From Paramuribaculum sp. (GTDB lineage Bacteria > Bacteroidota > Bacteroidia > Bacteroidales > Muribaculaceae), in the NCBI GenBank assembly GCA_029052015.1, contig JAIDJW010000033.1, positions 59 to 64,058 on the forward strand: DNA of 64,000 nucleotides. The letters are read 5' to 3'. This document shows positions 1 through 10,044 of the stretch, piece after piece; within the stretch, counting starts at the first letter, position 1, and every line of letters begins with the position of its first letter. A program made the translations under genes and the position numbers. The notes below the pieces were generated by a model. The model was not told the origin of the DNA, did no database searches, and saw nothing but the letters and a program-made list of their open reading frames with translations.

Positions 1-887
1 GCCGAGACCACCGACGAAGCGGCCGTTGCCCCGGAATTGCCGACCGCACCGACTATCCTCACGGCATTGGTATTATCGGCAAAACGCTCCATATTGCCGC
101 CTTTGAGGGTGACAAGGCTCTGCAGCGAGCCCTTGAAGAGCATTCCTGTGCCGGAAAGAGCATATCGCAGCCGTTTGTCGCCGTAGCCTCCTCCAGCCTC
201 CACTGTGCCCATTGGCTTGAAGAGAGCCTTGGACTTGAGCTTGATATTGACAGCGACGTTGTCGCTCACCTTATCCTTGTCAATCTTCAGGTCGTGATGA
301 TTGGAAATCACCTGCACGTCCTTCACATAATCGGCGGGAATGCTCCGCGTGGCTATGGAATATCTGCCGCCGAGCATATCGAGCCCCTCGACATAAAAAT
401 TGCTTATGTCCTTGCCCATGTACTTTATCACTCCGTTGTCCTCGACCGTGATACCGGGAATTTTCTTCAGCGCGTCCTCAAGCACCACATCGCCCTTGCC
501 CTTGAACATGTCGAGAAAGAAGCTCAGGGTGTCACCCCTCAGCTTTACGGACGGAGCGGCAACAACAACCTCGCGAAGCTCGCGCGACCTGGGCGTCATC
601 ACCACATCGAGAACATTGCCGGCGGGTAGCGGCTTTGTCACCTTGTCGTATGAAAGATGCTCGAATGTAACGCTGAGTGAATCGCTGCGCCGGGGCACCT
701 TCAGAGAATAGGAACCGTCGGATTTAGTGCGCGCGAATGATCGCGTGAGCCTGCCTTTCACAAGTTTTACGGTCACAGACTGCACCGGAGCGCCATCGGT
801 ATCCATAACGGCACCCGTTATGATTTCCTGCGCGTAAACGCCCGAAAACGCCGCTAACGCAAGAATAAACGCGATGATTCGTTTCAT
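1..887 (-). CDS. TonB-dependent-receptor-like outer-membrane protein with N-terminal carboxypeptidase-regulatory-like domain (5' part; runs off the window start)
   Basis: Absent from the ORF track because it is open at the edge. Manual translation from ATG at 887 gives MKRIIAFILALAAFSGVYAQEIITGAVMDTDGAPVQSVTVKL...LREVVVAAPSVKLRGDTLSF...LEDALKKIPGITVEDNGVIKYMGKDISNFYVEGLDMLGGRYSIATRSIP, i.e. signal peptide, CarboxypepD_reg-like domain and plug-like region typical of barrels encoded next to GLPGLI genes. ATGA overlap with the upstream gene. Confidence 0.85.
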   Translation of the reverse strand, partial: MKRIIAFILALAAFSGVYAQEIITGAVMDTDGAPVQSVTVKLVKGRLTRSFARTKSDGSYSLKVPRRSDSLSVTFEHLSYDKVTKPLPAGNVLDVVMTPRSRELREVVVAAPSVKLRGDTLSFFLDMFKGKGDVVLEDALKKIPGITVEDNGVIKYMGKDISNFYVEGLDMLGGRYSIATRSIPADYVKDVQVISNHHDLKIDKDKVSDNVAVNIKLKSKALFKPMGTVEAGGGYGDKRLRYALSGTGMLFKGSLQSLVTLKGGNMERFADNTNAVRIVGAVGNSGATAASSVVS

Positions 888-1801
888 TTCAGCTCAAGCG
901 GCTGATAGATATTGACCGGTGTGCGCTGCTGAATGCCGTTGACAAAAATCGAACCCCAGTCGCCGCCGTTTTTCTTCACTGAGATGTCGGTTATCATCGC
1001 AGGATTGATGGATTTCATGGGATTTTGCGCCTGGCTGTTCTTTATGCCGACGAATTTGTCGCGGTCGGTCTTTACGGTGCGCTTGTCCTTGGCTCGGAGC
1101 AGCGGCACATTGCTCTTTGTGAAACTGATGAGCTTGAATTCATGTATGCCGTCGGCATCGGAAGCCTTGACAACAAGCCCGGGGAGTCCGGCAAGTTTCC
1201 AGGGACCGTATGCGGCAGGTATCTCCTCCGTGTACCACACTGTCCACTTTCTTCCTCCGTAGCTACCTGTGGCTTTGGCTATATTGTATCCTGCAAGTGT
1301 GTCGGTCTCCTCTGTGAGAAACCATTCAATATCAGCAAACGGTTCCTCGTAGGACACGACTGTCACTGCCGACATATCATTGACAACCGTCTTGCCCATC
1401 GGAATATTCTGAGTAACTACGGGAACGAAGAAGTTTTCAGTGACGAACTGCTTGCGACGCTCCTCTTCTACAGCCTGCGCAGGTGCTCCGGCGGCGGCGA
1501 GTGAGTCAGCGCTGTAGGTGATGTAATCGGTAAAGACGGCCCCGTCATCACCGATGCGCAGAGCTGTGGCGTAGAGCTCGCTAACAGGATTGCCCTGCTT
1601 GTCCTGAGTATTGATTTTGTAGTCATAGAGAGCTGTGTATTTGCCCTCGCCGAGCTTCTCGAACTCGTTTACAATCTCCTCGCTCATTTGAGTTGCCTCA
1701 GATGTCTTCTTTACTGTTACGCCTCCGCCTTTCACTACTACCTGGGAGGACGCGCCGAGCGCGGTTGCTGCGGCAAGAATTAATGTGACTATTTTTTTCA
1801 T
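884..1801 (-). CDS. GLPGLI family exported protein
   Basis: WYTEEIPAAYGPWKLAGLPGLVVKA signature and signal peptide MKKIVTLILAAATALGASSQ. Start at 1801 preferred over the ORF-track start at 1831 because a -7 box lies at 1820-1827. Confidence 0.9.
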   Translation of the reverse strand: MKKIVTLILAAATALGASSQVVVKGGGVTVKKTSEATQMSEEIVNEFEKLGEGKYTALYDYKINTQDKQGNPVSELYATALRIGDDGAVFTDYITYSADSLAAAGAPAQAVEEERRKQFVTENFFVPVVTQNIPMGKTVVNDMSAVTVVSYEEPFADIEWFLTEETDTLAGYNIAKATGSYGGRKWTVWYTEEIPAAYGPWKLAGLPGLVVKASDADGIHEFKLISFTKSNVPLLRAKDKRTVKTDRDKFVGIKNSQAQNPMKSINPAMITDISVKKNGGDWGSIFVNGIQQRTPVNIYQPLELK

Positions 1802-1819
1802 GATCATAAGGATTTTTGG

Positions 1820-1827
1820 CAAAAGTA
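1820..1827 (-). promoter_or_regulatory. Bacteroidetes sigma-70 -7 element (TACTTTTG)
   Basis: Matches TAnnTTTG about 20 nt upstream of the GLPGLI ATG. Confidence 0.6.
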
Positions 1828-1901
1828 TCAATAAAAGCCGTCAATCTGTTACAATCTAACATTTTTTGTGCTTTATTTTGATGAGTTTCAACTAATCATC
1901 C

Positions 1902-1933
1902 TACCCCCCCTATAGTTAATTCATGTTAACACA
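1902..1933. repeat. Direct repeat copy 1: TA-C7-T-ATAGTTAATTCATGTTAACACA
   Basis: The 22-bp core at 1912-1933 is identical to 7449-7470. Both copies are preceded by TA plus a poly-C run and contain the palindrome GTTAA-N6-TTAAC. Confidence 0.9.
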
Positions 1934-1936
1934 CGC

Positions 1937-1978
1937 AAAAAAATAAAGCAGGGAGAGAAGCCCTGAGGCAACTCTCCC
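1937..1978 (-). terminator. Intrinsic terminator of the six-gene envelope operon
   Basis: GGGAGAG-TT-GCC-TCAG-GGC-TT-CTCTCCC hairpin followed by TGCTTTATTTTTTT on the minus strand, about 35 nt past the stop at 2014. Confidence 0.75.
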
Positions 1979-2013
1979 AAACTTTACATCGTATAAACCG
2001 TAAACCGTAAACC

Positions 2014-3528
2014 TTACTTTTTCTTCTTCAGGCGAAGGAAATATCCGGTGTAGTCCTTGCCTTTTTTGCCCTTGAATGCAGAAGCCATAAGACTGGCAGC
2101 ATCTTCTCTGGCGCCCTCTTCATCCTTTACCTCGGCGCCTTTGTTTTTCTCCTCTTTCTTTTCTGCGAGCTCGTCTACCGCACCATAACGGTTATCCCAA
2201 ATGCGGGTTTCATCAGGTTCTACAGTTGCGACAGCCTTGTAAGTAACGCGACCGGTTGCAGGATCCTCAATCGCTTCAAGGACTTCGTACTTGTCACCTT
2301 TCTTGAGATCTTCTTTCAGACCGATGCCCGCATATATGGTGCCGTCCTCATCACAGCGAGAGATGGGAGCGATGGTGCGGAACACCTCGTGCTTGCTCTG
2401 GAGCTTGCATATAGCGTTGTCAATAGCGCGTGCTGTAGCGCGCTCGATAAGTGTGCTCTGGGGAGTTGTGTTGAAGATGCTCTGGCGCACATTGCAACCT
2501 GCCTTGTCCTTACCCACGAAGCTGAGCTTGCACAGACCGGTGGCAACCAGGTCCTCGATACTCTTGTTCTGGTCATAGATTTTTTCAGCGAATTCTGCCG
2601 AAATCTCATCGTTCCAGTCAAGTTTGTAAAGATATGTCACAGCCTGCACCTGGAAACCCTCACCTGCAGCAGCGCTGGCAACAGCACCTGCTACTTTGCC
2701 GATGCTGCCAAACATACCCTCTGCCATAGCCTGGCTCTCTGCCACTACAGCCTGATTGCTGCGGAAGCGGAGATTTACGGCGAGAACGTATGTGTTGTTG
2801 ATTAGATCAAAGCCCTTGCCTGCGAGATTGCTTGCAAAGAAACCGCTTTCCTTTGCCTTTGCGAGATCTTCGGCCGATGCGTTCTGGAGACCGCGCTCCT
2901 GAATGAGCTTCACATCCTTGTCCCAAGCGCCGTTTTCATAACCAAACCATTTGCCGATGAGGTCGGCTGCGGTGTTGTTGCCCTGGAAACTCTTGGCGAT
3001 AACTGCGGGAAGGTAGTCTTCCATGTCGTCGGTGGAGAGCATGGCTGAATTCGATGTGCCTGCCTGAGCGGCCATAGTAGAAGCAGCCACTCCTTTTGCA
3101 AATGAGCCAAACTTCTTGCCGTTTGACTTCTTTTCAGCATACTGTGCTTTCTCCTCATCGGTAACTGTGGCTTTGACTGCATCATAGTCGATGACGCGGA
3201 GAGCAAGGTTGTGGTCGTTAAACTGTGAAGGAATGGGAATATTCGGGAATTTCAGAAGAGGTATCTCCACAACGGGAATTCCCGCCATAGAATCGTTTGC
3301 CGCTTTCTTTGCATCAGTATTTGCAAGTCCTTTGGCAATATCCATGAATTCATTGGTCTTAGTCTCGTCAATCTGTTTCTGCAGACGAGCGTTCTGCTCG
3401 TCACTCTTGACAAGAATAGTGTAAAGTGAGCTACGCATGTAGGTAGGCTCATTGTCTGCTATGGCAACTGCGGGAGCTGCAAAGCCAACGATAGTTGCGA
3501 TAGCGGCAACTTTGCTGATTAGTTTCAT
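2014..3528 (-). CDS. Exported hypothetical protein with a C-terminal region resembling FlgT/CsgG-associated beta domains
   Basis: 504 aa with signal peptide. C-terminal IYAGIGLKEDLKKGDKYEVLEAIEDPATG resembles the FlgT C-terminal pattern (by eye only). Confidence 0.7.
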   Translation of the reverse strand: MKLISKVAAIATIVGFAAPAVAIADNEPTYMRSSLYTILVKSDEQNARLQKQIDETKTNEFMDIAKGLANTDAKKAANDSMAGIPVVEIPLLKFPNIPIPSQFNDHNLALRVIDYDAVKATVTDEEKAQYAEKKSNGKKFGSFAKGVAASTMAAQAGTSNSAMLSTDDMEDYLPAVIAKSFQGNNTAADLIGKWFGYENGAWDKDVKLIQERGLQNASAEDLAKAKESGFFASNLAGKGFDLINNTYVLAVNLRFRSNQAVVAESQAMAEGMFGSIGKVAGAVASAAAGEGFQVQAVTYLYKLDWNDEISAEFAEKIYDQNKSIEDLVATGLCKLSFVGKDKAGCNVRQSIFNTTPQSTLIERATARAIDNAICKLQSKHEVFRTIAPISRCDEDGTIYAGIGLKEDLKKGDKYEVLEAIEDPATGRVTYKAVATVEPDETRIWDNRYGAVDELAEKKEEKNKGAEVKDEEGAREDAASLMASAFKGKKGKDYTGYFLRLKKKK

Positions 3529-3561
3529 AAAAGGTATATTAATAATTGGTTTCTTTGATGA

Positions 3562-4527
3562 TTAAAGCCAGTAGTGGCGGATGATAGTCTTGGGTTGGTT
3601 TTGTGCGCGAGCAACTGCAACGCTCTTGGCGGCATCGACAACTTTCATGCGAAACGCGTGGTCGTTTGCCATCCGCTTTTTTTCCATTGCAAGAGCGTCC
3701 TCATACTTCTTGACATTCTCAAAAACCCACTGCTCCTTTACGGCGCTGGACATCTTTTTAGAAAGCACATTTGCGCGAGCTTTAGCGCTTGCGCTGGGGT
3801 CGATTCGCGCAATCAGGTCAAAAGCTTTTCTCGCACCGGCGGCCGTTGGGTCAGCACCCCATTCTGCCTCTGCCTGTGCCAGTAGCTGATCTCCTTCATA
3901 CTCCGTACGGTGATTGTAAGCTTCCAGCATAAGGTCCTCTGCCTCAGCGTATGCAGGACAGCATTCAGGTATCTGTGAAGCAACATAGATAGCCTCGTCA
4001 TAGTCGCGTTGGTTCATGGCGCTACGGGCTTTTTTGAGAAGCACGGGAGCATAGTTGACATAGTAGTCAAGGATTTTTTTCTTTCCCTCCTCAACAAATG
4101 CCTTGAACTCAGCATTCTGGGCGTTGAGACGACTCATGGCATTGACATAGGCTCGTTCTTCGGATATGCCTGCGCCCTTGAGCTCAAATGACTTTGAAGC
4201 GAACACTTTCTGGTCATCACCATCGCCGATATATACCGTAAGAGTTGTTTTTACGAGGAATTTTTGTGACGGACCGGGAGTTACGTCAAGAAATCCCTTG
4301 TCAAACCGCCCTGCGAGAAAGAAACGGCTACTGTATGCGTCGCCGGCAAGACCGGCAGCGGCAGCAGCACGGGTCAGACGCATCTGAAGTTGGTTTTCTA
4401 CGGCTTTGCTCACCTCATCGCCCTGCTTGATTTCAGCTACTGCGATGTGGAGCTCACACTCAGCCATTGCAAGAGGCGAACCCAAAAGCATGGCGGCTGC
4501 AATGGCGCAAATTGATTTTCTTATCAT
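3562..4527 (-). CDS. Exported hypothetical protein: alpha/beta N-terminal domain plus TPR-like helical region
   Basis: 321 aa with signal peptide. LLKKARSAMNQRDYDEAIYVASQIP is TPR-like. Sits in the operon with short spacers. Confidence 0.7.
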   Translation of the reverse strand: MIRKSICAIAAAMLLGSPLAMAECELHIAVAEIKQGDEVSKAVENQLQMRLTRAAAAAGLAGDAYSSRFFLAGRFDKGFLDVTPGPSQKFLVKTTLTVYIGDGDDQKVFASKSFELKGAGISEERAYVNAMSRLNAQNAEFKAFVEEGKKKILDYYVNYAPVLLKKARSAMNQRDYDEAIYVASQIPECCPAYAEAEDLMLEAYNHRTEYEGDQLLAQAEAEWGADPTAAGARKAFDLIARIDPSASAKARANVLSKKMSSAVKEQWVFENVKKYEDALAMEKKRMANDHAFRMKVVDAAKSVAVARAQNQPKTIIRHYWL

Positions 4528-4545
4528 AGCATGGAGGGATTTGGT

Positions 4546-5484
4546 TTATTTTTCACCGATAGCAAGACTTCCGGAGCCAAGAGTCGAACTTGTATTTTCA
4601 GCTCTGATGCCAAGAGATTTGAGATGTGCCTGCAGACCGGCTACAAACTGCTTGGCGTTTATAGCTTTGCCGGAAGCATCGCGCATTGGCACACGCACCT
4701 GATGATACGCAAGTCGATTGCGTGTCGAACTCCTCTCTGTAAAGCGATGATCCTGAGTGTTCTCATGCATCCAGTCATAAATGATATTGCCGAGTTCCTT
4801 GCCACCGAATTCTGTGTTGAAGTTGAGACCTGAGCCATTGTCAATAATCCGGAAATTCATACGCATCTCGCGTCCGTTTGCCTGCACATCGGCAAAATGA
4901 TTCATGAGCTGGGTGCAGAATTCGTCCATATTGCTCTTCATGGCCTCTGTGATAGCGGCGCTCAGAGGAGTTGTGCGGGGCACAGGCGCACCCTCGGAAG
5001 TCACTGCGGCTATGCTCTTGTTAGAATATGAATCAAGAGCCTCGAGACGATATGAAAGACTATAATTGAAGCCTACTGAATTTTTAATCCAACCGATTTT
5101 GATGATGATGTCCGGCTTGGCGTTTGCAATGATGATATCTGAGCTGCTTTTAGCGTATGAACTACCGGTCTCAGCGCCTTCAAAAGCCTCATCCTCCATT
5201 TCATCAAGATCATCGCTTTCCTGCTCAGCGCCGAAGTCCTTCAAGGGGAATCCACGCTGTGCGAAAACAGAATTAACTCCTGTTTTTACCTGTGTGAGCT
5301 CCTGGTCAAGAAATGCTTTCTCGTAGTCCTCATACACTTTTGTTTTGCCGCCACGGTCTACCTGATTGACATAACCCTGTGCATTACACCAGGTTTTGTC
5401 TGGCAGCAGCATTATTGAGGGTGCCTCGGCGTAAACAGAAACAGCCATGACGCCGGCAGCGATAAGTGATATTATTTTCTTCAT
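4546..5484 (-). CDS. DUF6175 family exported protein
   Basis: PSIMLLPDKTWC...GFPLKD...DIIIKIGW...LEALDSYSNKSIAA...QVRVPM pattern and a signal peptide. Confidence 0.7.
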   Translation of the reverse strand: MKKIISLIAAGVMAVSVYAEAPSIMLLPDKTWCNAQGYVNQVDRGGKTKVYEDYEKAFLDQELTQVKTGVNSVFAQRGFPLKDFGAEQESDDLDEMEDEAFEGAETGSSYAKSSSDIIIANAKPDIIIKIGWIKNSVGFNYSLSYRLEALDSYSNKSIAAVTSEGAPVPRTTPLSAAITEAMKSNMDEFCTQLMNHFADVQANGREMRMNFRIIDNGSGLNFNTEFGGKELGNIIYDWMHENTQDHRFTERSSTRNRLAYHQVRVPMRDASGKAINAKQFVAGLQAHLKSLGIRAENTSSTLGSGSLAIGEK

Positions 5485-5523
5485 CGTTTTTTAGTGTGAT
5501 TGGTTTATCTGTCTGTATATTTG

Positions 5524-6024
5524 TTAAGGTTTAAGGATTCCGTCTTTTACAAGCTGATCGCGCAGCGCACGGCGGTCAACATCAAGCACCACTCCGTATC
5601 CGTCGATTGATTTAGTGGAGCCCTTCATTCGCGCTTCGCCGCTCTTGCTGTTTTCTTTCACATACTTGCGGTATTTGCCGCCATCCCTGAAGAAAGGGGC
5701 AAAATAATAATCGTAGCGCTCGCGTCCGTTTACCTCCATTACCAAAGGATGACGCTCGGCACCCTGAACCCCCTGCGAGAATCCGTTGAACAGCACGGTG
5801 GCGAGAGCATTTTTCTTTGCCTGCTCCACTGCCTCGCTCTGACTGGTGCCCCTACCCCATGCACGCACGGTGAGTGTGCCGTCACCGTTCTGACCGAGAC
5901 ACACGGTTTCCATATTGGTATAAGCGGCAGCGGGCACCACAGTGGGCTTTTTGCTGCAACCGCCTGTAGTTGTCGCTGCAACCGCGATAAGCGCGCAAAC
6001 GATTAGTCTGACAGTTTTTTTCAT
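5524..6024 (-). CDS. Hypothetical lipoprotein (LPP20/FlgT-N-like), paralog of 6761..7264
   Basis: Signal peptide ending ...TTGGC (lipobox-like). Contains AWGRGTSQSEAVEQAKKNALATVLFNG and shares LF(N/K)G, FxPFF and LRxxLxKxG motifs with the 167-aa protein. Confidence 0.7.
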   Translation of the reverse strand: MKKTVRLIVCALIAVAATTTGGCSKKPTVVPAAAYTNMETVCLGQNGDGTLTVRAWGRGTSQSEAVEQAKKNALATVLFNGFSQGVQGAERHPLVMEVNGRERYDYYFAPFFRDGGKYRKYVKENSKSGEARMKGSTKSIDGYGVVLDVDRRALRDQLVKDGILKP

Positions 6025-6032
6025 AATATGAG

Positions 6033-6761
6033 TTAGAATTCGTAGCCTAATTTGAGACCTAGAAATGATAGCACCTGACGCTTGCGCTCACCCTCTTTAT
6101 TAATTAGCGGAAGCTGCTGCGCAGTGTAATTGAGGGATACAAGGAACGACGACCGGTCGACACCGAACTTGAAGCCTATGGCAGGTCGCGCCATAAGACC
6201 GTCACGGAACGCACCGCCGAGATCAACAGAATAGTATGGAACTATGCTGCGATATGCGTGTCCGAGAAGATTGCCGCGCACATTGAAGTAAAGCGGTATA
6301 GCCCATTTTACAGAGGAGTCGCGGAAATCGGGAACCTGACTGAAGTAGTGTCGATAGCCTACTCCAAGACCGATGCGGGCATACTGGCTGCCGCGATAAC
6401 CGAACACAAAGTCTCCTTCGGCATACATTCTGTTAGTGTGGCTCACCCTTACAGAACTACCTGCCCCTATCTCAAACGCACACCAGAATCCGTGCTCCAT
6501 AGAGCGCAGCCGGGTGAGGTTGCCATCATGCCCGACTGATGGCACTTCCGGTGCCTGACGCGTGATTTTACGCACCTCAGTCATATTATAAGTATATAAC
6601 TGACCGTTTTCGCTTCGGATCGTTATACTGACATTGGGCACTTCGCTCTCGATATATCCTTTGATGACGCTACCGTTGTTGAGGTATATGTAATCGGCGC
6701 TCCTGGCGCCGGCACCGAGCGCGCACACTACCAGTGCGAGCAGCATAATCAGTTTCTTCAT
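6033..6761 (-). CDS. Small outer-membrane beta-barrel with N-terminal soluble domain
   Basis: Signal peptide, N-domain DYIYLNNGSVIKGYI, amphipathic beta strands and a C-terminal BAM-type signal LGLKLGYEF. Confidence 0.8.
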   Translation of the reverse strand: MKKLIMLLALVVCALGAGARSADYIYLNNGSVIKGYIESEVPNVSITIRSENGQLYTYNMTEVRKITRQAPEVPSVGHDGNLTRLRSMEHGFWCAFEIGAGSSVRVSHTNRMYAEGDFVFGYRGSQYARIGLGVGYRHYFSQVPDFRDSSVKWAIPLYFNVRGNLLGHAYRSIVPYYSVDLGGAFRDGLMARPAIGFKFGVDRSSFLVSLNYTAQQLPLINKEGERKRQVLSFLGLKLGYEF

Positions 6762-7264
6762 TACCAGCCGCTGTTTAGTCCGCGAATAACTCCCTGCTTC
6801 TCCAGATCCTGACGCAGGAGAGCGGTGTTGATTGTGAGCTGTACGGATACCTTGAACTGTTTGCCGTATTTCGCTACCCTGCGTGTATGCTCAACAAACT
6901 GCACATAGTTCATATAATCACCGTTTGCAAAAAACGGGGTAAAGAAGTCGGAATGCTGTGTCTTTACCGTGGGCGAGCCGGCCATCGGATTGTGACGGGT
7001 AGCTGTGCCGGAAAGAGTGTTGGTAGAATCATCATACCCTTTAAAAAGGATTGCATTGACTGCAGCTTCTGCAAGCTGTTTGTCTGTAACCTTATCGGCT
7101 TTCTTGGCTACAATAGTTACGCGCACGTTGGCGCTGCCATTGTTGCCGGCTCCGGCTCCTTCGAGATATGCCTCTGACACATCGGGTGCCTTGTCCTTGG
7201 CAAATGTGGATGGAGCGGTGACTGCCATAACAAGCAGTACTGCCATCGAGAGAAATTTACGCAT
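6761..7264 (-). CDS. Exported hypothetical protein, first gene of the operon, paralog of 5524..6024
   Basis: 167 aa with signal peptide. Motifs AAVNAILFKGY, FFTPFFANGDYMNYV, INTALLRQDLEKQGVI. Its stop overlaps the next start (TAATG). Confidence 0.75.
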   Translation of the reverse strand: MRKFLSMAVLLVMAVTAPSTFAKDKAPDVSEAYLEGAGAGNNGSANVRVTIVAKKADKVTDKQLAEAAVNAILFKGYDDSTNTLSGTATRHNPMAGSPTVKTQHSDFFTPFFANGDYMNYVQFVEHTRRVAKYGKQFKVSVQLTINTALLRQDLEKQGVIRGLNSGW

Positions 7265-7412
7265 GTCTGTGTCTTTTTATATTAATTAGTTGGTATTCTG
7301 TCCATATTATAGTCCGCAGATATTCTTTAATAAGCATCCGGGAGCTATTCACATCCTGTTGTTCGCAGATCATAACATTAATTACATTTAATTAAAATTA
7401 TGACCTCGGGTG

Positions 7413-7420
7413 CAAATTTA
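7413..7420 (-). promoter_or_regulatory. -7 element (TAAATTTG) of the six-gene operon
   Basis: TAnnTTTG match. The expected -33 position falls on the adjacent poly-G tract. Confidence 0.6.
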
Positions 7421-7437
7421 TGAAATATGGGTCAAAA

Positions 7438-7470
7438 TACCCCCCCCCATAGTTAATTCATGTTAACACA
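7438..7470. repeat. Direct repeat copy 2: TA-C9-ATAGTTAATTCATGTTAACACA
   Basis: 22-bp core at 7449-7470 is identical to copy 1. The poly-C run is 9 nt here versus 7 nt in copy 1. Confidence 0.9.
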
Positions 7471-7493
7471 ACACAAACATGCGGTTAAAAGGG

Positions 7494-8399
7494 TCATTTC
7501 ACGGCTTTTGTCGCCGATTTACTGATTGTCACGAGATATACTCCACAAAAGATAAATAAAACAGCCATACATTTGGCAGGAGTAAAAGCGTCAAGCCCAA
7601 GAGTAACACCTACTACAGAGGCCACTACAGGCTGAACATAATTGTACATACCGACGAGAGTTGGCCGCAAGTGTTTCTGACCAATCATTATGCATATATA
7701 GGCAAGAAAGGTGGCACAGCACACCACAAAAGCCACGCCTCCCCACTCTAACGCTGATATACGGGTCCACAACACAGCTTTCCACTCAGCGAGCGAGAAC
7801 GGGGTGATAGCTATCGCGGCGAAAGTGAACATCCATTTCATCAAGGTGACCACTGAATACTTTTTAATGAAATTGCGGTAAAAGGTCAGATACAACGCGT
7901 AGCTTAGCTGAGCTGTAAGCACCAGGAGGTCTCCGAGAACATGGTTTGAGCCTGACTGAGAAACGCTCTTGCCTGACAGAACAAGCAATAGAGCTCCTGC
8001 AGCGCCGAGTGCCACTCCTCCCGCCTTCTTCAGTGTAATCGGTTCGCCGAGAACTACGGCGGCAAGCACCATGACCCATAGCGGCATGGTGGTGGTTATT
8101 ATGGATGCCTCCCCGGGAGATGTCATCCCGACACCGAATATATAGCATCCCTGATTGAAAAGAATGCCGAGCATTGCGGCTCCGGCAAGCAAAAGCAAAT
8201 CAAGCGGCGCCACTTTTTCTTTTGCAGTAAATACTGATGTAGTCCAAAACAGCACAGCCGCACCGATTATGCGGAAGTCGGTAAGCAGCAGCGGAGTGAC
8301 AATGCCGCCGGCAAGAACGAGCTTCGCCACCGGAGCCATTAGTCCCCACATGGTATTGGCACCGAGCATTGCAAGATGTCCTTTCAGCTTCTCATTCAT
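7494..8399 (-). CDS. DMT/EamA family transporter
   Basis: About 10 hydrophobic segments in two EamA repeats (LGEPITLKKAGGVALG; YNYVQPVVAS). Confidence 0.9.
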   Translation of the reverse strand: MNEKLKGHLAMLGANTMWGLMAPVAKLVLAGGIVTPLLLTDFRIIGAAVLFWTTSVFTAKEKVAPLDLLLLAGAAMLGILFNQGCYIFGVGMTSPGEASIITTTMPLWVMVLAAVVLGEPITLKKAGGVALGAAGALLLVLSGKSVSQSGSNHVLGDLLVLTAQLSYALYLTFYRNFIKKYSVVTLMKWMFTFAAIAITPFSLAEWKAVLWTRISALEWGGVAFVVCCATFLAYICIMIGQKHLRPTLVGMYNYVQPVVASVVGVTLGLDAFTPAKCMAVLFIFCGVYLVTISKSATKAVK

Positions 8400-8419
8400 A
8401 ATAAAGCCTTAACGCATAA

Positions 8420-8453
8420 ATAATGCCCCCCGCGTGGTTGCAGACGGCATTAT
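8420..8453 (-). terminator. Possible terminator hairpin after the MIPS gene
   Basis: ATAATGCC...GGCATTAT inverted repeat about 40 nt after the stop. The U-tract is weak. Confidence 0.4.
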
Positions 8454-8491
8454 CGTAATTCAATCTGAATCTTGATATAAGGAAGAATCTA

Positions 8492-9835
8492 TCAGTCTAT
8501 TTCTTCATCGGCTTCGTAACCGCCCATCTCGCGGATAGCGTTTTTGAGCATGGTGTACTGCTTGAAGAGATGATTCACCGGCACCTCTCCATTTATATAA
8601 TCATGCATGGGGCTCTTCAGGAAGAAACTGAGGAAGCGCTGTATGCCATGACGGCCTGCACGGGCGGCAAGATCGCTCAGAAGCACGAGGTCAAGACACA
8701 GTGGCGCGGCAAGGATAGAATCGCGGCAGAGGAAATTAATCTTAATCTGCATGGGATAGCCCATCCAGCCGAAAATGTCGATATTGTCCCAGCCTTCCTT
8801 GCTGTCATTGCGCGGAGGATAGTAGTTGATGCGCACTTTGTGATAATAGCCCTGATGACCGCCTTCTTCAGCGCCACCGCAGTTGGCATTGTAAAGGTCG
8901 GGCTGCTCTTCTGGCACGAGGATTGATTCGAGAGTCGACAACTTCGAAACCTCCTTGGTGCGGAAGTTGGCTGGCTCGTCGAGCACAAGACCGTCACGGT
9001 TGCCGAGAATATTGGTTGAGAACCAGCCGCTGAGACCGAGACACCGTGTGCCTATTATGGGTGCAAAACCTGATTTCACAAGAGTCTGACCGGTCTTGAA
9101 GTCCTTGCCGGCGATGGGCATGCGGGTCTTTTCGCTGAGTTCCCACATTGCGGGGATGTCGACTGTAGTGTTTGGAGCGCCCATGATGAAGGGTGCGCCC
9201 TCGCTTAGTGCGGCGTAAGCATAGCACATGGAGGGAGCTATATGCTCTTTGTCGTCTGCCTGCATTGCTGCCTCGAGGGATTCGAGCGAACCATGCACTT
9301 CCTCATCAACAGGAACATATACTTCAGTAGAAGCAGCCCAGAGAACCACAACGCGCTCCACTCCGGTCTCTTTTTTAAAGCTGCGGATATCCTCGCGGAG
9401 TTGTTCTACCATTTCCCAACGGGTTTTGCCGGTCATTATATTGTCGCCATTCAGCCGCTTTGCATAATTGTGGTCGAATGCCGCCTTCATGGGCACAATC
9501 TTTTCAAGCTCGTCCTTAACCGGCTCGATATCCTTGTCATTAAGCACTTCCGCATATTTCGCGCTCTCGTACGCATTTGCGGGGTAAACATCCCATGCGC
9601 CGAACACTATATCATCAAGCTTAGCCAAGGGCACAATATCCTCATATTTCAGATATTTTTTTTCTGAGCCTCTGCCCACACGAATCTTATCATACTGGGT
9701 CATTGCGCCTACCGGCTTGGCAAGACCTTTGCGGGCCATGAGGACACCTGTCATAAATGTTGAACTGACAGCGCCGAGACCGACCACAAGAACGCCTAGT
9801 TTACCGTCTGCTGGCTTTACCGTTGCCTTGTTCAT
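8492..9835 (-). CDS. ino1: myo-inositol-1-phosphate synthase (MIPS)
   Basis: VGLGAVSST Rossmann motif, VVLWAASTE, GKDFKTGQT, NILGNRDG, CRDSILAAPL, SFFLKSP. Confidence 0.96.
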   Translation of the reverse strand: MNKATVKPADGKLGVLVVGLGAVSSTFMTGVLMARKGLAKPVGAMTQYDKIRVGRGSEKKYLKYEDIVPLAKLDDIVFGAWDVYPANAYESAKYAEVLNDKDIEPVKDELEKIVPMKAAFDHNYAKRLNGDNIMTGKTRWEMVEQLREDIRSFKKETGVERVVVLWAASTEVYVPVDEEVHGSLESLEAAMQADDKEHIAPSMCYAYAALSEGAPFIMGAPNTTVDIPAMWELSEKTRMPIAGKDFKTGQTLVKSGFAPIIGTRCLGLSGWFSTNILGNRDGLVLDEPANFRTKEVSKLSTLESILVPEEQPDLYNANCGGAEEGGHQGYYHKVRINYYPPRNDSKEGWDNIDIFGWMGYPMQIKINFLCRDSILAAPLCLDLVLLSDLAARAGRHGIQRFLSFFLKSPMHDYINGEVPVNHLFKQYTMLKNAIREMGGYEADEEID

Positions 9836-10044
9836 GGTTTGGAAATATGTTGGTTATTATTACTTCTATCATTCTGTTTTCCTACTCGTTTTTATGCACC
9901 GATGCGGAAAAAGCGTGTAAAAGTACATCTAATTTTTTGTATGCAAAATTATTTGTAATATAAACTCCACTTATTTTTGTGAATGATGTTTAATTTATCA
10001 TTGCAAATGACAACAATCAATAAATTACCTCGGAAATCACAATG

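What the first reader, a model, noticed from the sequence alone, without database searches (positions are those of the whole stretch)
1902..7470. The envelope operon is exactly bracketed by a direct repeat (poly-C + GTTAA-N6-TTAAC palindrome)
Seen: ATAGTTAATTCATGTTAACACA (22 bp, identical) at 1912-1933 and 7449-7470, in the same orientation and each preceded by TA-Cn. The interval holds the whole operon with its promoter and terminator. The core has inverted arms around a 6-bp spacer. Established: that geometry fits both tyrosine-recombinase sites and dimeric transcription-factor operators. Two alternative inferences: (a) an att-like duplication marking a ~5.5-kb integrase-less cassette that could excise or amplify; (b) a shared operator co-regulating the operon and the downstream GLPGLI/TonB-receptor pair, since each copy lies upstream of a minus-strand -7 box (about 30 and 85 bp away). 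No recombinase gene is present in the window.
Basis: partly seen in the sequence, partly recalled or inferred. Interest (0 to 1): 0.72.

Follow-up and report, generated by a model that had tools for sequence, protein, structure and literature searches.

The report
Duplicated poly-G promoter module, not att site
The repeat that brackets the envelope operon is two copies of a promoter module (two TTAAC half-sites plus a slippage-prone run of G's) that one Bacteroidales family places in front of pilus, outer-membrane-receptor and envelope operons; it is not the scar of a mobile cassette.

Summary
The 22-mer occurs exactly twice in the window and twice in the 2.35-Mb genome.

On the gene (minus) strand it reads TTAAC-N5-TTAAC, short linker, poly-G. 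This module is widespread in the family:
- 22 of 24 other genomes of the genus.
- 94 of 150 other genomes of the family.
- 0 of 119 genomes from 119 other families of the order.
- The reversed-pattern control gave 0 everywhere.

In 32 of 42 modules read, a Bacteroidetes -7 box (TAnnTTTG) lies 30-33 nt after the proximal TTAAC, so the G run fills the -33 position.

Copy 2 (7438-7470) fits this design. It is conserved upstream of the orthologous operon in 5 of 8 relatives, so it is the operon's own promoter. Copy 1 (1902-1933) is a 32-nt copy just after the operon's terminator. It has no -7 box at the required distance.

Relatives carry BlaI/BlaR1 genes at this place instead of EamA plus the operon, and no single-site 'empty' allele was found.

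Best reading: an activator-dependent promoter whose G tract sets the spacing, as in Bordetella fim promoters. Slippage itself was not shown. The scan noted a similar poly-G promoter in another Bacteroidales family (e1-4227135).

The parts
7438..7470 (-). Copy 2: complete upstream promoter module of the operon. Gene strand: TGTG-TTAAC-ATGAA-TTAAC-TAT-G9-TA. Half-sites on the + strand are GTTAA at 7462-7466 and 7452-7456; the G9/C9 tract is 7440-7448.
   Evidence: The same architecture is found upstream of orthologous op1 in 5 of 8 relatives. TTAAC end to -7 box is 31 nt.
7413..7420 (-). -7 box TAAATTTG of the operon promoter, 19 nt after the G9 tract
   Evidence: TAnnTTTG as the Bacteroidetes -7 consensus is recalled knowledge.
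2014..7264 (-). Six-gene envelope operon: 167 aa (6761-7264), 242 aa (6033-6761), 166 aa lipoprotein (5524-6024), 312 aa DUF6175 (4546-5484), 321 aa (3562-4527), 504 aa (2014-3528). All six have N-terminal signal sequences.
   Evidence: Same gene order in G049, G021 and G065. No PDB sequence relatives for three of the proteins.
1937..1986 (-). Intrinsic terminator of the operon (GGGAGAG...CTCTCCC stem, then a T run). It ends 3 nt before copy 1.
1902..1933 (-). Copy 1: 32-nt orphan copy of the module. Gene strand: TGTG-TTAAC-ATGAA-TTAAC-TAT-A-G7-TA. The tract is interrupted and shortened, and there is no -7 box 17-22 nt downstream.
1820..1827 (-). TACTTTTG -7 box, 76 nt after the G7 tract and 12 nt before the ATG at 1807. 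Probably the GLPGLI gene's own promoter.
884..1807 (-). GLPGLI family protein (TIGR01200, 128.8 bits)
3..887 (-). N-terminal part of a CarboxypepD_reg TonB-dependent receptor; the gene runs off the window
7494..8399 (-). EamA-family transporter. Its stop codon lies 23 nt from copy 2. It is not at this locus in relatives.

Best explanation
The two 22-mers are two copies of the upstream half of a promoter module specific to this Bacteroidales family. On the gene strand the module is TTAAC-N5-TTAAC (two direct half-sites one helical turn apart), a 0-5 nt linker, a run of 7-11 G usually followed by TA, then 17-22 nt and a TAnnTTTG -7 box.

Inferred mechanism. A transcription activator binds the two TTAAC half-sites head to tail; an OmpR/PhoB-type response regulator is the obvious candidate. 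It recruits RNA polymerase to a core promoter that has a -7 box but no -33 TTTG. The G tract is the spacer between activator and core, so gain or loss of one G by replication slippage changes both distance and helical phase. That would switch or dial expression of the operon in a heritable, reversible way.

Copy 2 is the envelope operon's own ancestral promoter of this type. Copy 1 is a secondary 32-nt copy of the module alone. It was made by local copying (short-patch gene conversion or a duplication/recombination event) into the intergenic region ahead of GLPGLI/TonB receptor, at the point where this genome's gene order departs from its relatives. It lacks a correctly spaced -7 box and its tract is interrupted, so it is probably not a working promoter. 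At most it is a distal or decoy binding site.

Shown: the architecture, the spacing constraint, the phylogenetic range, conservation upstream of orthologous operons, and the kinds of downstream genes.
Inferred: activator binding, slippage-driven switching, and how copy 1 arose.
For: Distribution.
- C7+ N2-5 GTTAA N6 TTAA is in 22 of 24 other genus genomes and 0 of 16 genomes of other families.
- TTAAC N5 TTAAC N0-5 G7 is in 94 of 150 other family genomes and in 28 of 35 genera counted.
- It is in 0 of 119 genomes of 119 other families of the order.
- The reversed-pattern control is 0 in every genome.

Fixed geometry.
- A -7 box lies 17-22 nt after the tract in 23 of 30 modules.
- TTAAC end to -7 box is 30-33 nt in 32 of 42 modules.
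- This holds although the linker (0-5), tract (7-11) and spacer (17-22) vary. Variance of the sum is 2.4 against 7.0 for the summed parts; permutation p = 5e-5, n = 34, and the sequences are not independent.

Within this genome.
- Only 9 TTAAC-N5-TTAAC occur, and 7 are followed by a -7 box at 27-35 nt.
- A C-tract control with the same geometry gives 0.

Orthology.
- op1 orthologues are in 8 of 68 other genus genomes.
- 5 of the 8 have the two half-sites 29-33 nt from a -7 box.
- Their tracts are G7, G6, G9, G9 and, in G077, only GGG at the same total spacing.

Downstream genes.
- DUF3575, the first gene of type V pilus operons, follows 6 of 24 modules; CarbopepD_reg+Plug TonB receptors follow 3 of 24; RHS/DUF4595 follows 1.
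- In this genome, module to DUF3575/DUF3868 on C167.
- On C177 a G-less TTAAC-N5-TTAAC lies 33 nt from a -7 box ahead of a second DUF3575.

Tract instability (indirect).
- Both differences between copies 1 and 2 lie in the tract.
- G172 and G194 are identical over the 50 nt before and 75 nt after the module that were printed, and differ only by G9 versus GTG8.
- The G017 paralogue pair has G8 versus G7.
- An in-frame G9 sits just after the signal peptide of a SusC-like gene on C187.

Local copying recurs.
- G014 has two modules 2.5 kb apart, identical over 26 nt with unrelated flanks.
- G012 has two modules 14.6 kb apart, identical over 31 nt. They bracket a pilus operon, and the second sits 53 nt from its -7 box.
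Against: - No length polymorphism between strains of one species could be examined. The 22-mer is absent from metagenome contigs and genome contigs, and no close relative of the DUF6175 protein was found in metagenomes. Slippage is therefore inferred, not seen.
- Tract lengths cluster at 8-9 (27 of 34). This would also fit a fixed structural element.
- Two orthologous or paralogous pairs with conserved flanks show no tract difference: G135/G224 both G7, and the G213 and G217 pairs all G8.
- No regulator was identified. The genome has 5 Trans_reg_C matches, none next to a module.
- 10 of 42 modules lack a -7 box at 30-33 nt, although two of these are cut by an N gap or a contig end.
- In G172, G194 and G149 the module lies about 30 nt before the ATG of a membrane protein with no -7 box between.
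- Identity of copies 1 and 2 confined to about 32 nt is also what a site-specific recombination site would show.
- TonB receptors are module-driven in relatives, so copy 1 may be functional after all.
Confidence: 0.55

Rival explanations
1. Regulon reading, the reader's model (b) taken literally. Both copies are working binding sites of one regulator, which co-regulates the envelope operon (from copy 2) and the GLPGLI/TonB-receptor pair (from copy 1, acting at a distance on the TACTTTTG promoter 76 nt downstream).
For: - Copy 1 lies where a promoter should be: after the terminator and 96 nt before the GLPGLI ATG.
- CarbopepD_reg TonB receptors are the first gene after 3 of 24 modules in relatives.
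- Two DUF3575 modules work, if at all, from 63-64 nt, so the distance is not always 30-33.
- In this genome GLPGLI/TonB has lost the BlaI/BlaR1 genes that precede it in relatives, so it needs new control.
Against: - 87 nt from half-site to -7 box is an outlier among the 42 modules.
- None of 9 loci with GLPGLI relatives has a module in the gene's orientation upstream of the gene.
- Copy 1's tract is interrupted (A-G7).
- No expression data.
Confidence: 0.2
2. Static-promoter reading. The module is a real family-wide promoter element, but the G tract is a fixed structural or recognition element (for instance contacted by sigma or by the activator) and does not act as a slippage switch.
For: - Tract length is narrowly distributed: 8 or 9 in 27 of 34.
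- TA follows the tract in 21 of 29 modules.
- Several pairs with conserved flanks have equal tracts.
- No strain-level polymorphism was seen here.
Against: - Total spacing spreads evenly over 30-33 nt (8, 11, 7 and 6 modules). This is wide for a fixed activator-promoter geometry.
- G077 and the C177 pilus promoter keep half-sites and spacing without any tract, so the G's themselves are dispensable.
- Differences between otherwise identical copies fall in the tract.
- Runs of 8 or more G are intrinsically unstable (established knowledge).
- Earlier scan note e1-4227135 reports tract-length differences between near-identical strains in another Bacteroidales family; this was not checked here.
Confidence: 0.15
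3. Cassette reading, the reader's model (a). The module doubles as a recombination site. The operon entered, or can leave, by site-specific recombination between two modules, carried out by a recombinase encoded elsewhere. This left the direct repeat.
For: - Identity is confined to about 32 nt and brackets exactly -7 box, operon and terminator.
- The operon is accessory (8 of 68 other genus genomes) and sits among different housekeeping genes in each species.
- At this locus, seven related genomes carry a 127-132-aa and a 349-403-aa gene directly before GLPGLI in place of EamA plus the operon. In five of them this follows the inositol-1-phosphate synthase gene. Pfam confirms BlaI/BlaR1 in two.
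- Module pairs with module-limited identity recur in G012 and G014.
- The genome has 7 tyrosine-recombinase matches on other contigs.
Against: - The site is a promoter part at fixed distance from -7 boxes in 32 of 42 modules.
- It is present in 94 of 150 family genomes, usually as single copies.
- The orthologous operon has one module and none downstream in G049, G021 and G065.
- No single-site allele was found next to EamA (0 of 7) or GLPGLI (0 of 9).
- No recombinase or other mobility gene is in the 64-kb window.
- The operon's GC content equals the genome's.
- In G012 and G014 both members of the pair head their own operons.
- Excision would leave GLPGLI behind a module without a -7 box.
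Confidence: 0.1

Closest known systems
Bordetella pertussis fim2/fim3/fimX promoters (C-stretch plus 'fim box', BvgA-dependent)
   Same: A homopolymeric C/G tract lies inside the promoter of fimbrial genes, between an activator-binding region and the core -10-type element. Tract length sets the distance and the transcript level. Several paralogous surface-structure genes carry the same module (PMC1891110, passages read).
   Different: - Different phylum and promoter grammar: Bacteroidetes -7 box, with no -35/-10.
- Shorter tracts (7-11 against 10-19).
- Half-sites are direct TTAAC repeats.
- The set of genes goes beyond pili to TonB receptors and an envelope operon.
- Length-dependent expression is not shown here.
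Neisseria meningitidis porA, opc and fetA promoters (poly-G/C in the spacer between -35 and -10)
   Same: Slippage-prone G/C tract inside a promoter of outer-membrane protein genes (recalled; also named in earlier scan notes).
   Different: There the tract lies between two sigma-70 hexamers. Here it occupies the -33 position and separates an upstream repeat element from the -7 box.
Invertible promoters of gut Bacteroidales (fimbriae, capsules, outer surface proteins)
   Same: Same biological role proposed (phase-variable synthesis of pili and surface proteins) and the same order of bacteria (abstract of PMC7641763 in the listing).
   Different: Those switches use inverted repeats and a site-specific invertase. 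This module has no flanking inverted repeats and no recombinase. It would switch by tract length.
Porphyromonas gingivalis FimS/FimR control of fimbrial operons
   Same: In a Bacteroidales species a response regulator binds directly to promoters of fimbrial gene clusters (mfa1, pg2130) and activates them (PMC1974823, passages read).
   Different: The passages read contain none of the words consensus, motif, direct repeat or inverted repeat, and no poly-G tract came up. Whether a FimR relative binds TTAAC-N5-TTAAC was not tested.
Xer-dependent integrated elements (IMEX) and pdif modules: integrase-less cassettes flanked by repeated about 28-bp sites with a 6-bp spacer (recalled)
   Same: Direct repeat of a short site with inverted arms around a 6-bp spacer, bracketing genes without a recombinase gene.
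   Different: - The inverted-arm feature is not conserved across the family (G present in 9 of 29).
- The site is part of a promoter at dozens of loci.
- No empty site was found.
Earlier scan finding e1-4227135 (poly-G 7-9 in transporter promoters of a Tenuifilaceae-like Bacteroidales genome)
   Same: Poly-G tract in promoters of outer-membrane transporter clusters in the same order, read as a slippage switch.
   Different: Different family. No TTAAC repeat is mentioned. The TTAAC-plus-poly-G pattern was not found in 119 other families of the order, so the two are probably independent inventions.

Membership tests
Homopolymeric-tract (slipped-strand) phase-variable promoter | Mononucleotide run of about 7 or more inside the promoter, between functional elements | tested here: met
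   G9 lies between the TTAAC half-sites and the -7 box at copy 2. The same holds in 32 of 42 modules.
Homopolymeric-tract (slipped-strand) phase-variable promoter | Tract length differs between clonal or near-identical genomes while the flanks do not | tested here: inconclusive
   - G172 versus G194: G9 versus GTG8, with the 50 + 75 flanking nt printed identical.
- Window copies differ only in the tract.
- G135/G224 and the G213 and G217 pairs have equal tracts.
- No same-species genomes were available.
Homopolymeric-tract (slipped-strand) phase-variable promoter | Expression changes with tract length | not testable with these tools
   Needs reporter or transcript data.
Homopolymeric-tract (slipped-strand) phase-variable promoter | Controls surface or envelope genes | tested here: met
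   DUF3575 pilus operons, TonB receptors, RHS/DUF4595, and an operon of six exported proteins.
Bacteroidetes primary-sigma promoter (-33 TTTG / -7 TAnnTTTG; consensus recalled) | -7 box TAnnTTTG upstream of the gene | tested here: met
   TAAATTTG at 7413-7420, 148 nt before the op1 ATG. Copy 1 has none at 17-22 nt.
Bacteroidetes primary-sigma promoter (-33 TTTG / -7 TAnnTTTG; consensus recalled) | -33 TTTG about 19-21 nt upstream of the -7 box | tested here: not met
   That position is occupied by the 3' end of the G tract. The TTTG after the tract is only 12 nt from the box.
Tandem binding site of an OmpR/PhoB-type response regulator | Two direct repeats with 10-11 bp periodicity next to the core promoter | tested here: met
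   TTAAC-N5-TTAAC. C follows the distal TTAA in 23 of 29 modules at a position the search left free.
Tandem binding site of an OmpR/PhoB-type response regulator | A cognate regulator that binds the site | not testable with these tools
   5 Trans_reg_C matches in the genome, none linked to a module.
att/dif-like recombination site flanking a mobile cassette | Direct repeats at both ends of the inserted segment | tested here: met
att/dif-like recombination site flanking a mobile cassette | Recombinase encoded in or next to the element | tested here: not met
   None among the 61 window ORFs scanned. The 7 Phage_integrase matches are on other contigs.
att/dif-like recombination site flanking a mobile cassette | Empty site with a single copy in relatives | tested here: not met
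   0 of 7 EamA loci and 0 of 9 GLPGLI loci have a module in the gene's orientation. Relatives have BlaI/BlaR1 there instead. This is a weak test, because the relatives are other species.
att/dif-like recombination site flanking a mobile cassette | Site found at element boundaries rather than at a functional position of ordinary genes | tested here: not met
   Fixed 30-33 nt from -7 boxes in 32 of 42 modules. Conserved upstream of orthologous operons.

The most novel reading that the evidence does not exclude
One family of gut Bacteroidales has evolved its own phase-variation system that needs no DNA invertase. A family-specific activator site (TTAAC-N5-TTAAC) is coupled to a poly-G spacer in place of the -33 element, so that slippage randomly switches type V pilus operons, SusC-like receptors and envelope operons. 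In addition, the 25-33-nt module is itself copied locally to new intergenic sites (G000, G012, G014). This would be a way of bringing neighbouring operons under, or out of, the switch.
Probability: 0.4. Interest if true: 0.8.

Novelty: new variant of a known kind. Interest (0 to 1): 0.6.

Why it matters
Phase variation in gut Bacteroidales is known almost entirely as promoter inversion by site-specific recombinases. The papers returned by my three literature searches describe only that mechanism for this order, and I found none on poly-G promoters there.

A family-wide, recombinase-free promoter class would add a second route to surface variation in an abundant group of gut bacteria. It carries a slippage-prone tract in front of pili, nutrient receptors and envelope proteins. 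It also gives a simple sequence signature for predicting variable surface genes from genomes and for reading ON/OFF states from metagenomic reads. The TTAAC direct repeat defines a regulon whose regulator is unknown.

For the finding as given, the practical message is that a short exact repeat bracketing an operon need not be an att site.

Tried and rejected
- **Chance or assembly artefact: rejected.** 0 of 100 shuffles gave a match. The longest exact shared run is 22 nt, which I judge too short to mis-join contigs (my inference; the assembler and its settings are unknown to me). The module recurs in over 90 genomes.
- **Palindromic operator: rejected as the conserved feature**.
- **Other copies of the 22-mer elsewhere:** none in metagenome contigs or genome contigs.
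- **Close relatives of the DUF6175 protein in metagenomes:** 76 pattern matches, none confirmed.
- **DNA search of 600-8600 in 60 genus genomes:** too divergent (65-70%) to follow intergenic regions. I switched to protein searches.
- **Remnants of BlaI/BlaR1 at the two junctions:** only noise (best E 0.05).
- **Helical-phase idea (distances of 32, 64 and 96 nt):** dropped. Copy 1 is at 87 nt, not 96.
- **Compositional sign of horizontal transfer:** none.
- **Rfam families in 1-10000:** none at E up to 0.1.
- **Function of the operon:**
  - no PDB sequence relatives for the 167-, 312- and 504-aa proteins;
  - the Atlas gives only unnamed Bacteroidota clusters for the 504-aa protein, with LysM, FlgT_C and LpoB/CsgG leads all below 0.85;
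  - beyond the DUF6175 hit on the 312-aa protein, the only Pfam/NCBIfam hit among the six proteins is a sub-threshold NCBIfam domain match (24.8 bits against a cut-off of 43) on the 242-aa protein.
- **Intragenic G9 on C187:** I first misread it as out of frame. Translation shows it is in frame.
- **Earlier scan notes on this genome:** none.

Full report
**1. The observation**

The 22-mer ATAGTTAATTCATGTTAACACA is at 1912-1933 and 7449-7470 in the same orientation. No further match appears with up to three mismatches, and none in 100 shuffles. The assembly that holds the window (2.35 Mb, 210 contigs, 87% complete) has only these two copies.

With the preceding run the repeat is 30 nt at 97% identity. 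Copy 1 is TA-C7-T-22mer and copy 2 is TA-C9-22mer, so both differences lie in the homopolymer. Outside these roughly 32 nt the two intergenic regions share nothing.

All genes here are on the minus strand:
- a TonB-dependent receptor (3-887, partial);
- GLPGLI (884-1807);
- six genes for exported proteins (2014-7264, one of them DUF6175);
- EamA (7494-8399);
- an inositol-lipid cluster that starts with myo-inositol-1-phosphate synthase (8492-9835).

A strong terminator (about 1937-1986; -30.3 kcal/mol, z -4.2) ends 3 nt before copy 1.

**2. What the element is**

On the gene strand, copy 2 reads TGTG-TTAAC-ATGAA-TTAAC-TAT-G9-TA, then 19 nt, then TAAATTTG. The last is a Bacteroidetes -7 box (consensus TAnnTTTG, recalled).

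A scan of the genome for poly-G/C runs and for the palindrome found two more sites with the same layout:
- C167: G9, then 19 nt, then TAAATTTG.
- C118: G9, then 17 nt, then TAATTTTG.

A pattern search showed how widespread it is:

| Group searched | Pattern | Genomes with a match |
|---|---|---|
| Other genomes of the genus | C7+ N2-5 GTTAA N6 TTAA | 22 of 24 |
| One genome from each of 16 other families | same | 0 of 16 |
| Other genomes of the family | TTAAC N5 TTAAC N0-5 G7 | 94 of 150 (28 of 35 genera counted) |
| One genome from each of 119 other families of the order | same | 0 of 119 |

The reversed-pattern control was zero in every genome.

Geometry of the modules I could read:
- 23 of 30 have a -7 box 17-22 nt after the tract.
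- Over 42 modules, the distance from the proximal TTAAC to the -7 box is 30-33 nt in 32.
- It is 18, 26 or 27 nt in three, 63-64 nt in two, and 87 nt in one (window copy 1).
- No box was found in four, of which one is cut by an N gap and one by a contig end.

The parts vary (linker 0-5, tract 7-11, spacer 17-22), but their sum does not. Variance of the sum is 2.4 against 7.0 for the summed parts; permutation p = 5e-5, n = 34, with related sequences that are not independent.

With a canonical gap of about 20 nt, the -33 position falls in the G tract, so these promoters have no -33 TTTG.

The upstream element is better described as a direct repeat than as a palindrome:
- The base after the distal TTAA, which my pattern left free, is C in 23 of 29 modules.
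- The G that the palindrome requires is present in 9 of 29.

In this genome only nine TTAAC-N5-TTAAC exist, and seven are followed by a -7 box at 27-35 nt.

**3. Which genes it drives**

First ORFs after 24 modules in relatives:
- DUF3575 in 6;
- CarbopepD_reg+Plug TonB receptors in 3;
- RHS/DUF4595 in 1;
- no family above the curated cut-off in 14.

In G012 the DUF3575 gene heads a full type V pilus operon: DUF3868, Fimbrillin_C, Mfa2 and further genes.

In the window's own genome:
- The C167 module precedes DUF3575 and DUF3868.
- A second DUF3575 operon on C177 has the two half-sites 33 nt from a -7 box but no G tract.

The half-sites and the spacing are thus the constant features, and the G tract is an optional filling of the spacer.

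**4. Copy 2 is the operon's own promoter**

The first gene of the operon has orthologues in 8 of 68 other genus genomes. Five of the eight have the two half-sites 29-33 nt upstream of a -7 box:

| Genome | Tract |
|---|---|
| G049 | G7 |
| G080 | G6 |
| G065 | G9 |
| G021 | G9 |
| G077 | GGG only, at a total distance of 32 nt |

The three most divergent orthologues (35-40% identity) have no module.

The whole six-gene order is kept in G049, G021 and G065. None of these three has a second module after the last gene. The flanking genes are ordinary and differ in each species.

**5. Copy 1 and the locus history**

Copy 1 has the half-sites, the linker and an interrupted, shorter tract (A-G7), but nothing like a -7 box 17-22 nt downstream. 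The next box (TACTTTTG, 1820-1827) is 76 nt after the tract and 12 nt before the GLPGLI start codon.

In five relatives (G070, G016, G052, G044, G002) the order is: inositol-lipid genes, a gene of about 128 aa, a gene of about 357 aa, GLPGLI, TonB receptor.
- Pfam identifies the pair as BlaI (Penicillinase_R) and a BlaR1-like M56 protein in the two genomes tested.
- Same-sized ORF pairs precede GLPGLI in five more genomes (three of these five, plus G018 and G064).
- The window's genome has only a distant BlaI/BlaR pair, on C112.

EamA is elsewhere in seven relatives, without a module next to it. None of the nine loci with GLPGLI relatives has a module in the gene's orientation.

So EamA plus the operon stand where relatives have BlaI/BlaR1, and copy 1 sits at the downstream edge of that difference. 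No remnant of BlaI/BlaR1 is left. The operon's GC content matches the genome's.

**6. How the pair arose**

The N5, the linker and the four bases upstream all differ between modules of one genome but are identical in copies 1 and 2. The two are therefore related by copying, not by convergence.

Module pairs in the same orientation a few kb apart, with identity limited to the module, also occur elsewhere:
- G014: 26 nt identical, 2.5 kb apart, both with -7 boxes.
- G012: 31 nt identical, 14.6 kb apart. They bracket a pilus operon. The second heads another DUF3575 operon, with its -7 box 53 nt away.

Other pairs (G213, G217, G017) are ordinary longer duplications, with similar flanks.

I therefore favour local copying between modules, by short-patch conversion or by a duplication/recombination by-product. 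I cannot exclude recombination at the module.

Points against the att reading:
- the fixed promoter geometry;
- the conservation upstream of orthologues;
- single modules in relatives;
- no empty site;
- no recombinase among 61 window ORFs.

The seven tyrosine recombinases of the genome lie on other contigs.

**7. Mechanism proposed**

Two direct half-sites 10 bp apart, abutting a core promoter that lacks its upstream hexamer, are the classical layout of an activator-dependent promoter. A homopolymer as spacer makes the distance mutable.

This is how the Bordetella fim2/fim3/fimX promoters are described: a C-stretch plus a conserved fim box, with activity depending on the distance between activator region and -10 (PMC1891110, passages read). 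In Porphyromonas gingivalis a response regulator, FimR, binds fimbrial promoters directly (PMC1974823, passages read).

Indirect signs of tract instability:
- Differences between copies 1 and 2 are confined to the tract.
- G172 and G194 are identical over the 50 + 75 flanking nt printed and differ only by G9 versus GTG8. The 692 nt downstream differ at 16 positions.
- The G017 paralogues have G8 versus G7.
- Total spacing spreads evenly over 30-33 nt.

Against this:
- Tracts cluster at 8-9.
- Several conserved pairs have equal tracts.
- No same-species comparison was possible.

Slippage-driven switching is therefore an inference. I put it at about 0.6 given the architecture.

**8. Comparison and novelty**

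This works like the Bordetella fim and Neisseria porA/opc promoters. It is not a member of any described Bacteroidales switch: those are invertible promoters (the papers listed; I saw only listings and abstracts).

Three full-text searches for homopolymeric or poly-G promoter phase variation in Bacteroidales/Bacteroidetes found no such report. Subscription-only papers are not covered by that library.

The scan itself has noted a variable poly-G tract in transporter promoters of another Bacteroidales family (e1-4227135; not checked by me). The combination with TTAAC repeats appears restricted to the present family.

I rate this a new variant of a known kind.

**9. Verdict**

- Observation: confirmed.
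- Cassette reading: not supported.
- Regulon reading: supported in a modified form.

The finding's main value is that it exposes a family-wide promoter class. The bracketing itself is most likely a by-product of module copying.

Noticed in passing
G000 contig C187:4138-4146 (locus L111 239-247): A G9 run inside the coding region of a SusC-like TonB receptor (CarbopepD_reg + Plug). It lies just after the signal peptide and encodes GGG, in frame in this assembly. It is a candidate translational on/off switch.
   Followed up: partly
G000 contigs C134:2338-2346 and C152:5925-5933: Two further G9 runs followed by TAGA. Each is preceded by the same roughly 25-nt hairpin-like sequence (…CGAGGTTATCTCGCTGTCTGT…). 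They have no TTAAC repeats and no -7 box at 17-22 nt, so they form a second, unexplained class of poly-G site.
   Followed up: no
G000 contigs C4, C96, C179 (about 130 nt from contig ends): Three near-identical copies of TTAACACACGTTAAC, then 31 nt, then TAATTTTG, preceded by GTAACAG repeats. They lie at the start of a multi-copy element that breaks the assembly. The element was not identified.
   Followed up: no
window 884-1807 and relatives L085-L091: In relatives, GLPGLI and the TonB receptor follow a BlaI-like repressor and a BlaR1-like M56 protein in one same-strand cluster. This genome has lost that pair at the locus and keeps only a distant pair on C112.
   Followed up: partly
L095 (G023:C80) 3634-3671: A back-to-back double module: poly-C8, AGAT, TTAACATAATTTAAC, G10. 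One repeat element is flanked by tracts on both sides, possibly serving divergent promoters.
   Followed up: no
L113, L116, L122 (G172, G194, G149): The module lies only about 30 nt before the ATG of a multi-pass membrane protein. By recall the protein resembles a polyprenyl glycosylphosphotransferase. No -7 box lies between, which is an unexplained use of the module.
   Followed up: no
window 5524-6024 and 6761-7264: The first and third proteins of the operon (167 and 166 aa) are distant paralogues (cross-hits of 25-29% identity in relatives).
   Followed up: no
G000 contig ends (C69, C16, C147, C15, C33, C142, and C138:36-47, just before the window): Long poly-C/G runs of 12-19 nt at contig ends. 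These are probably sequencing or assembly artefacts, not biology.
   Followed up: no
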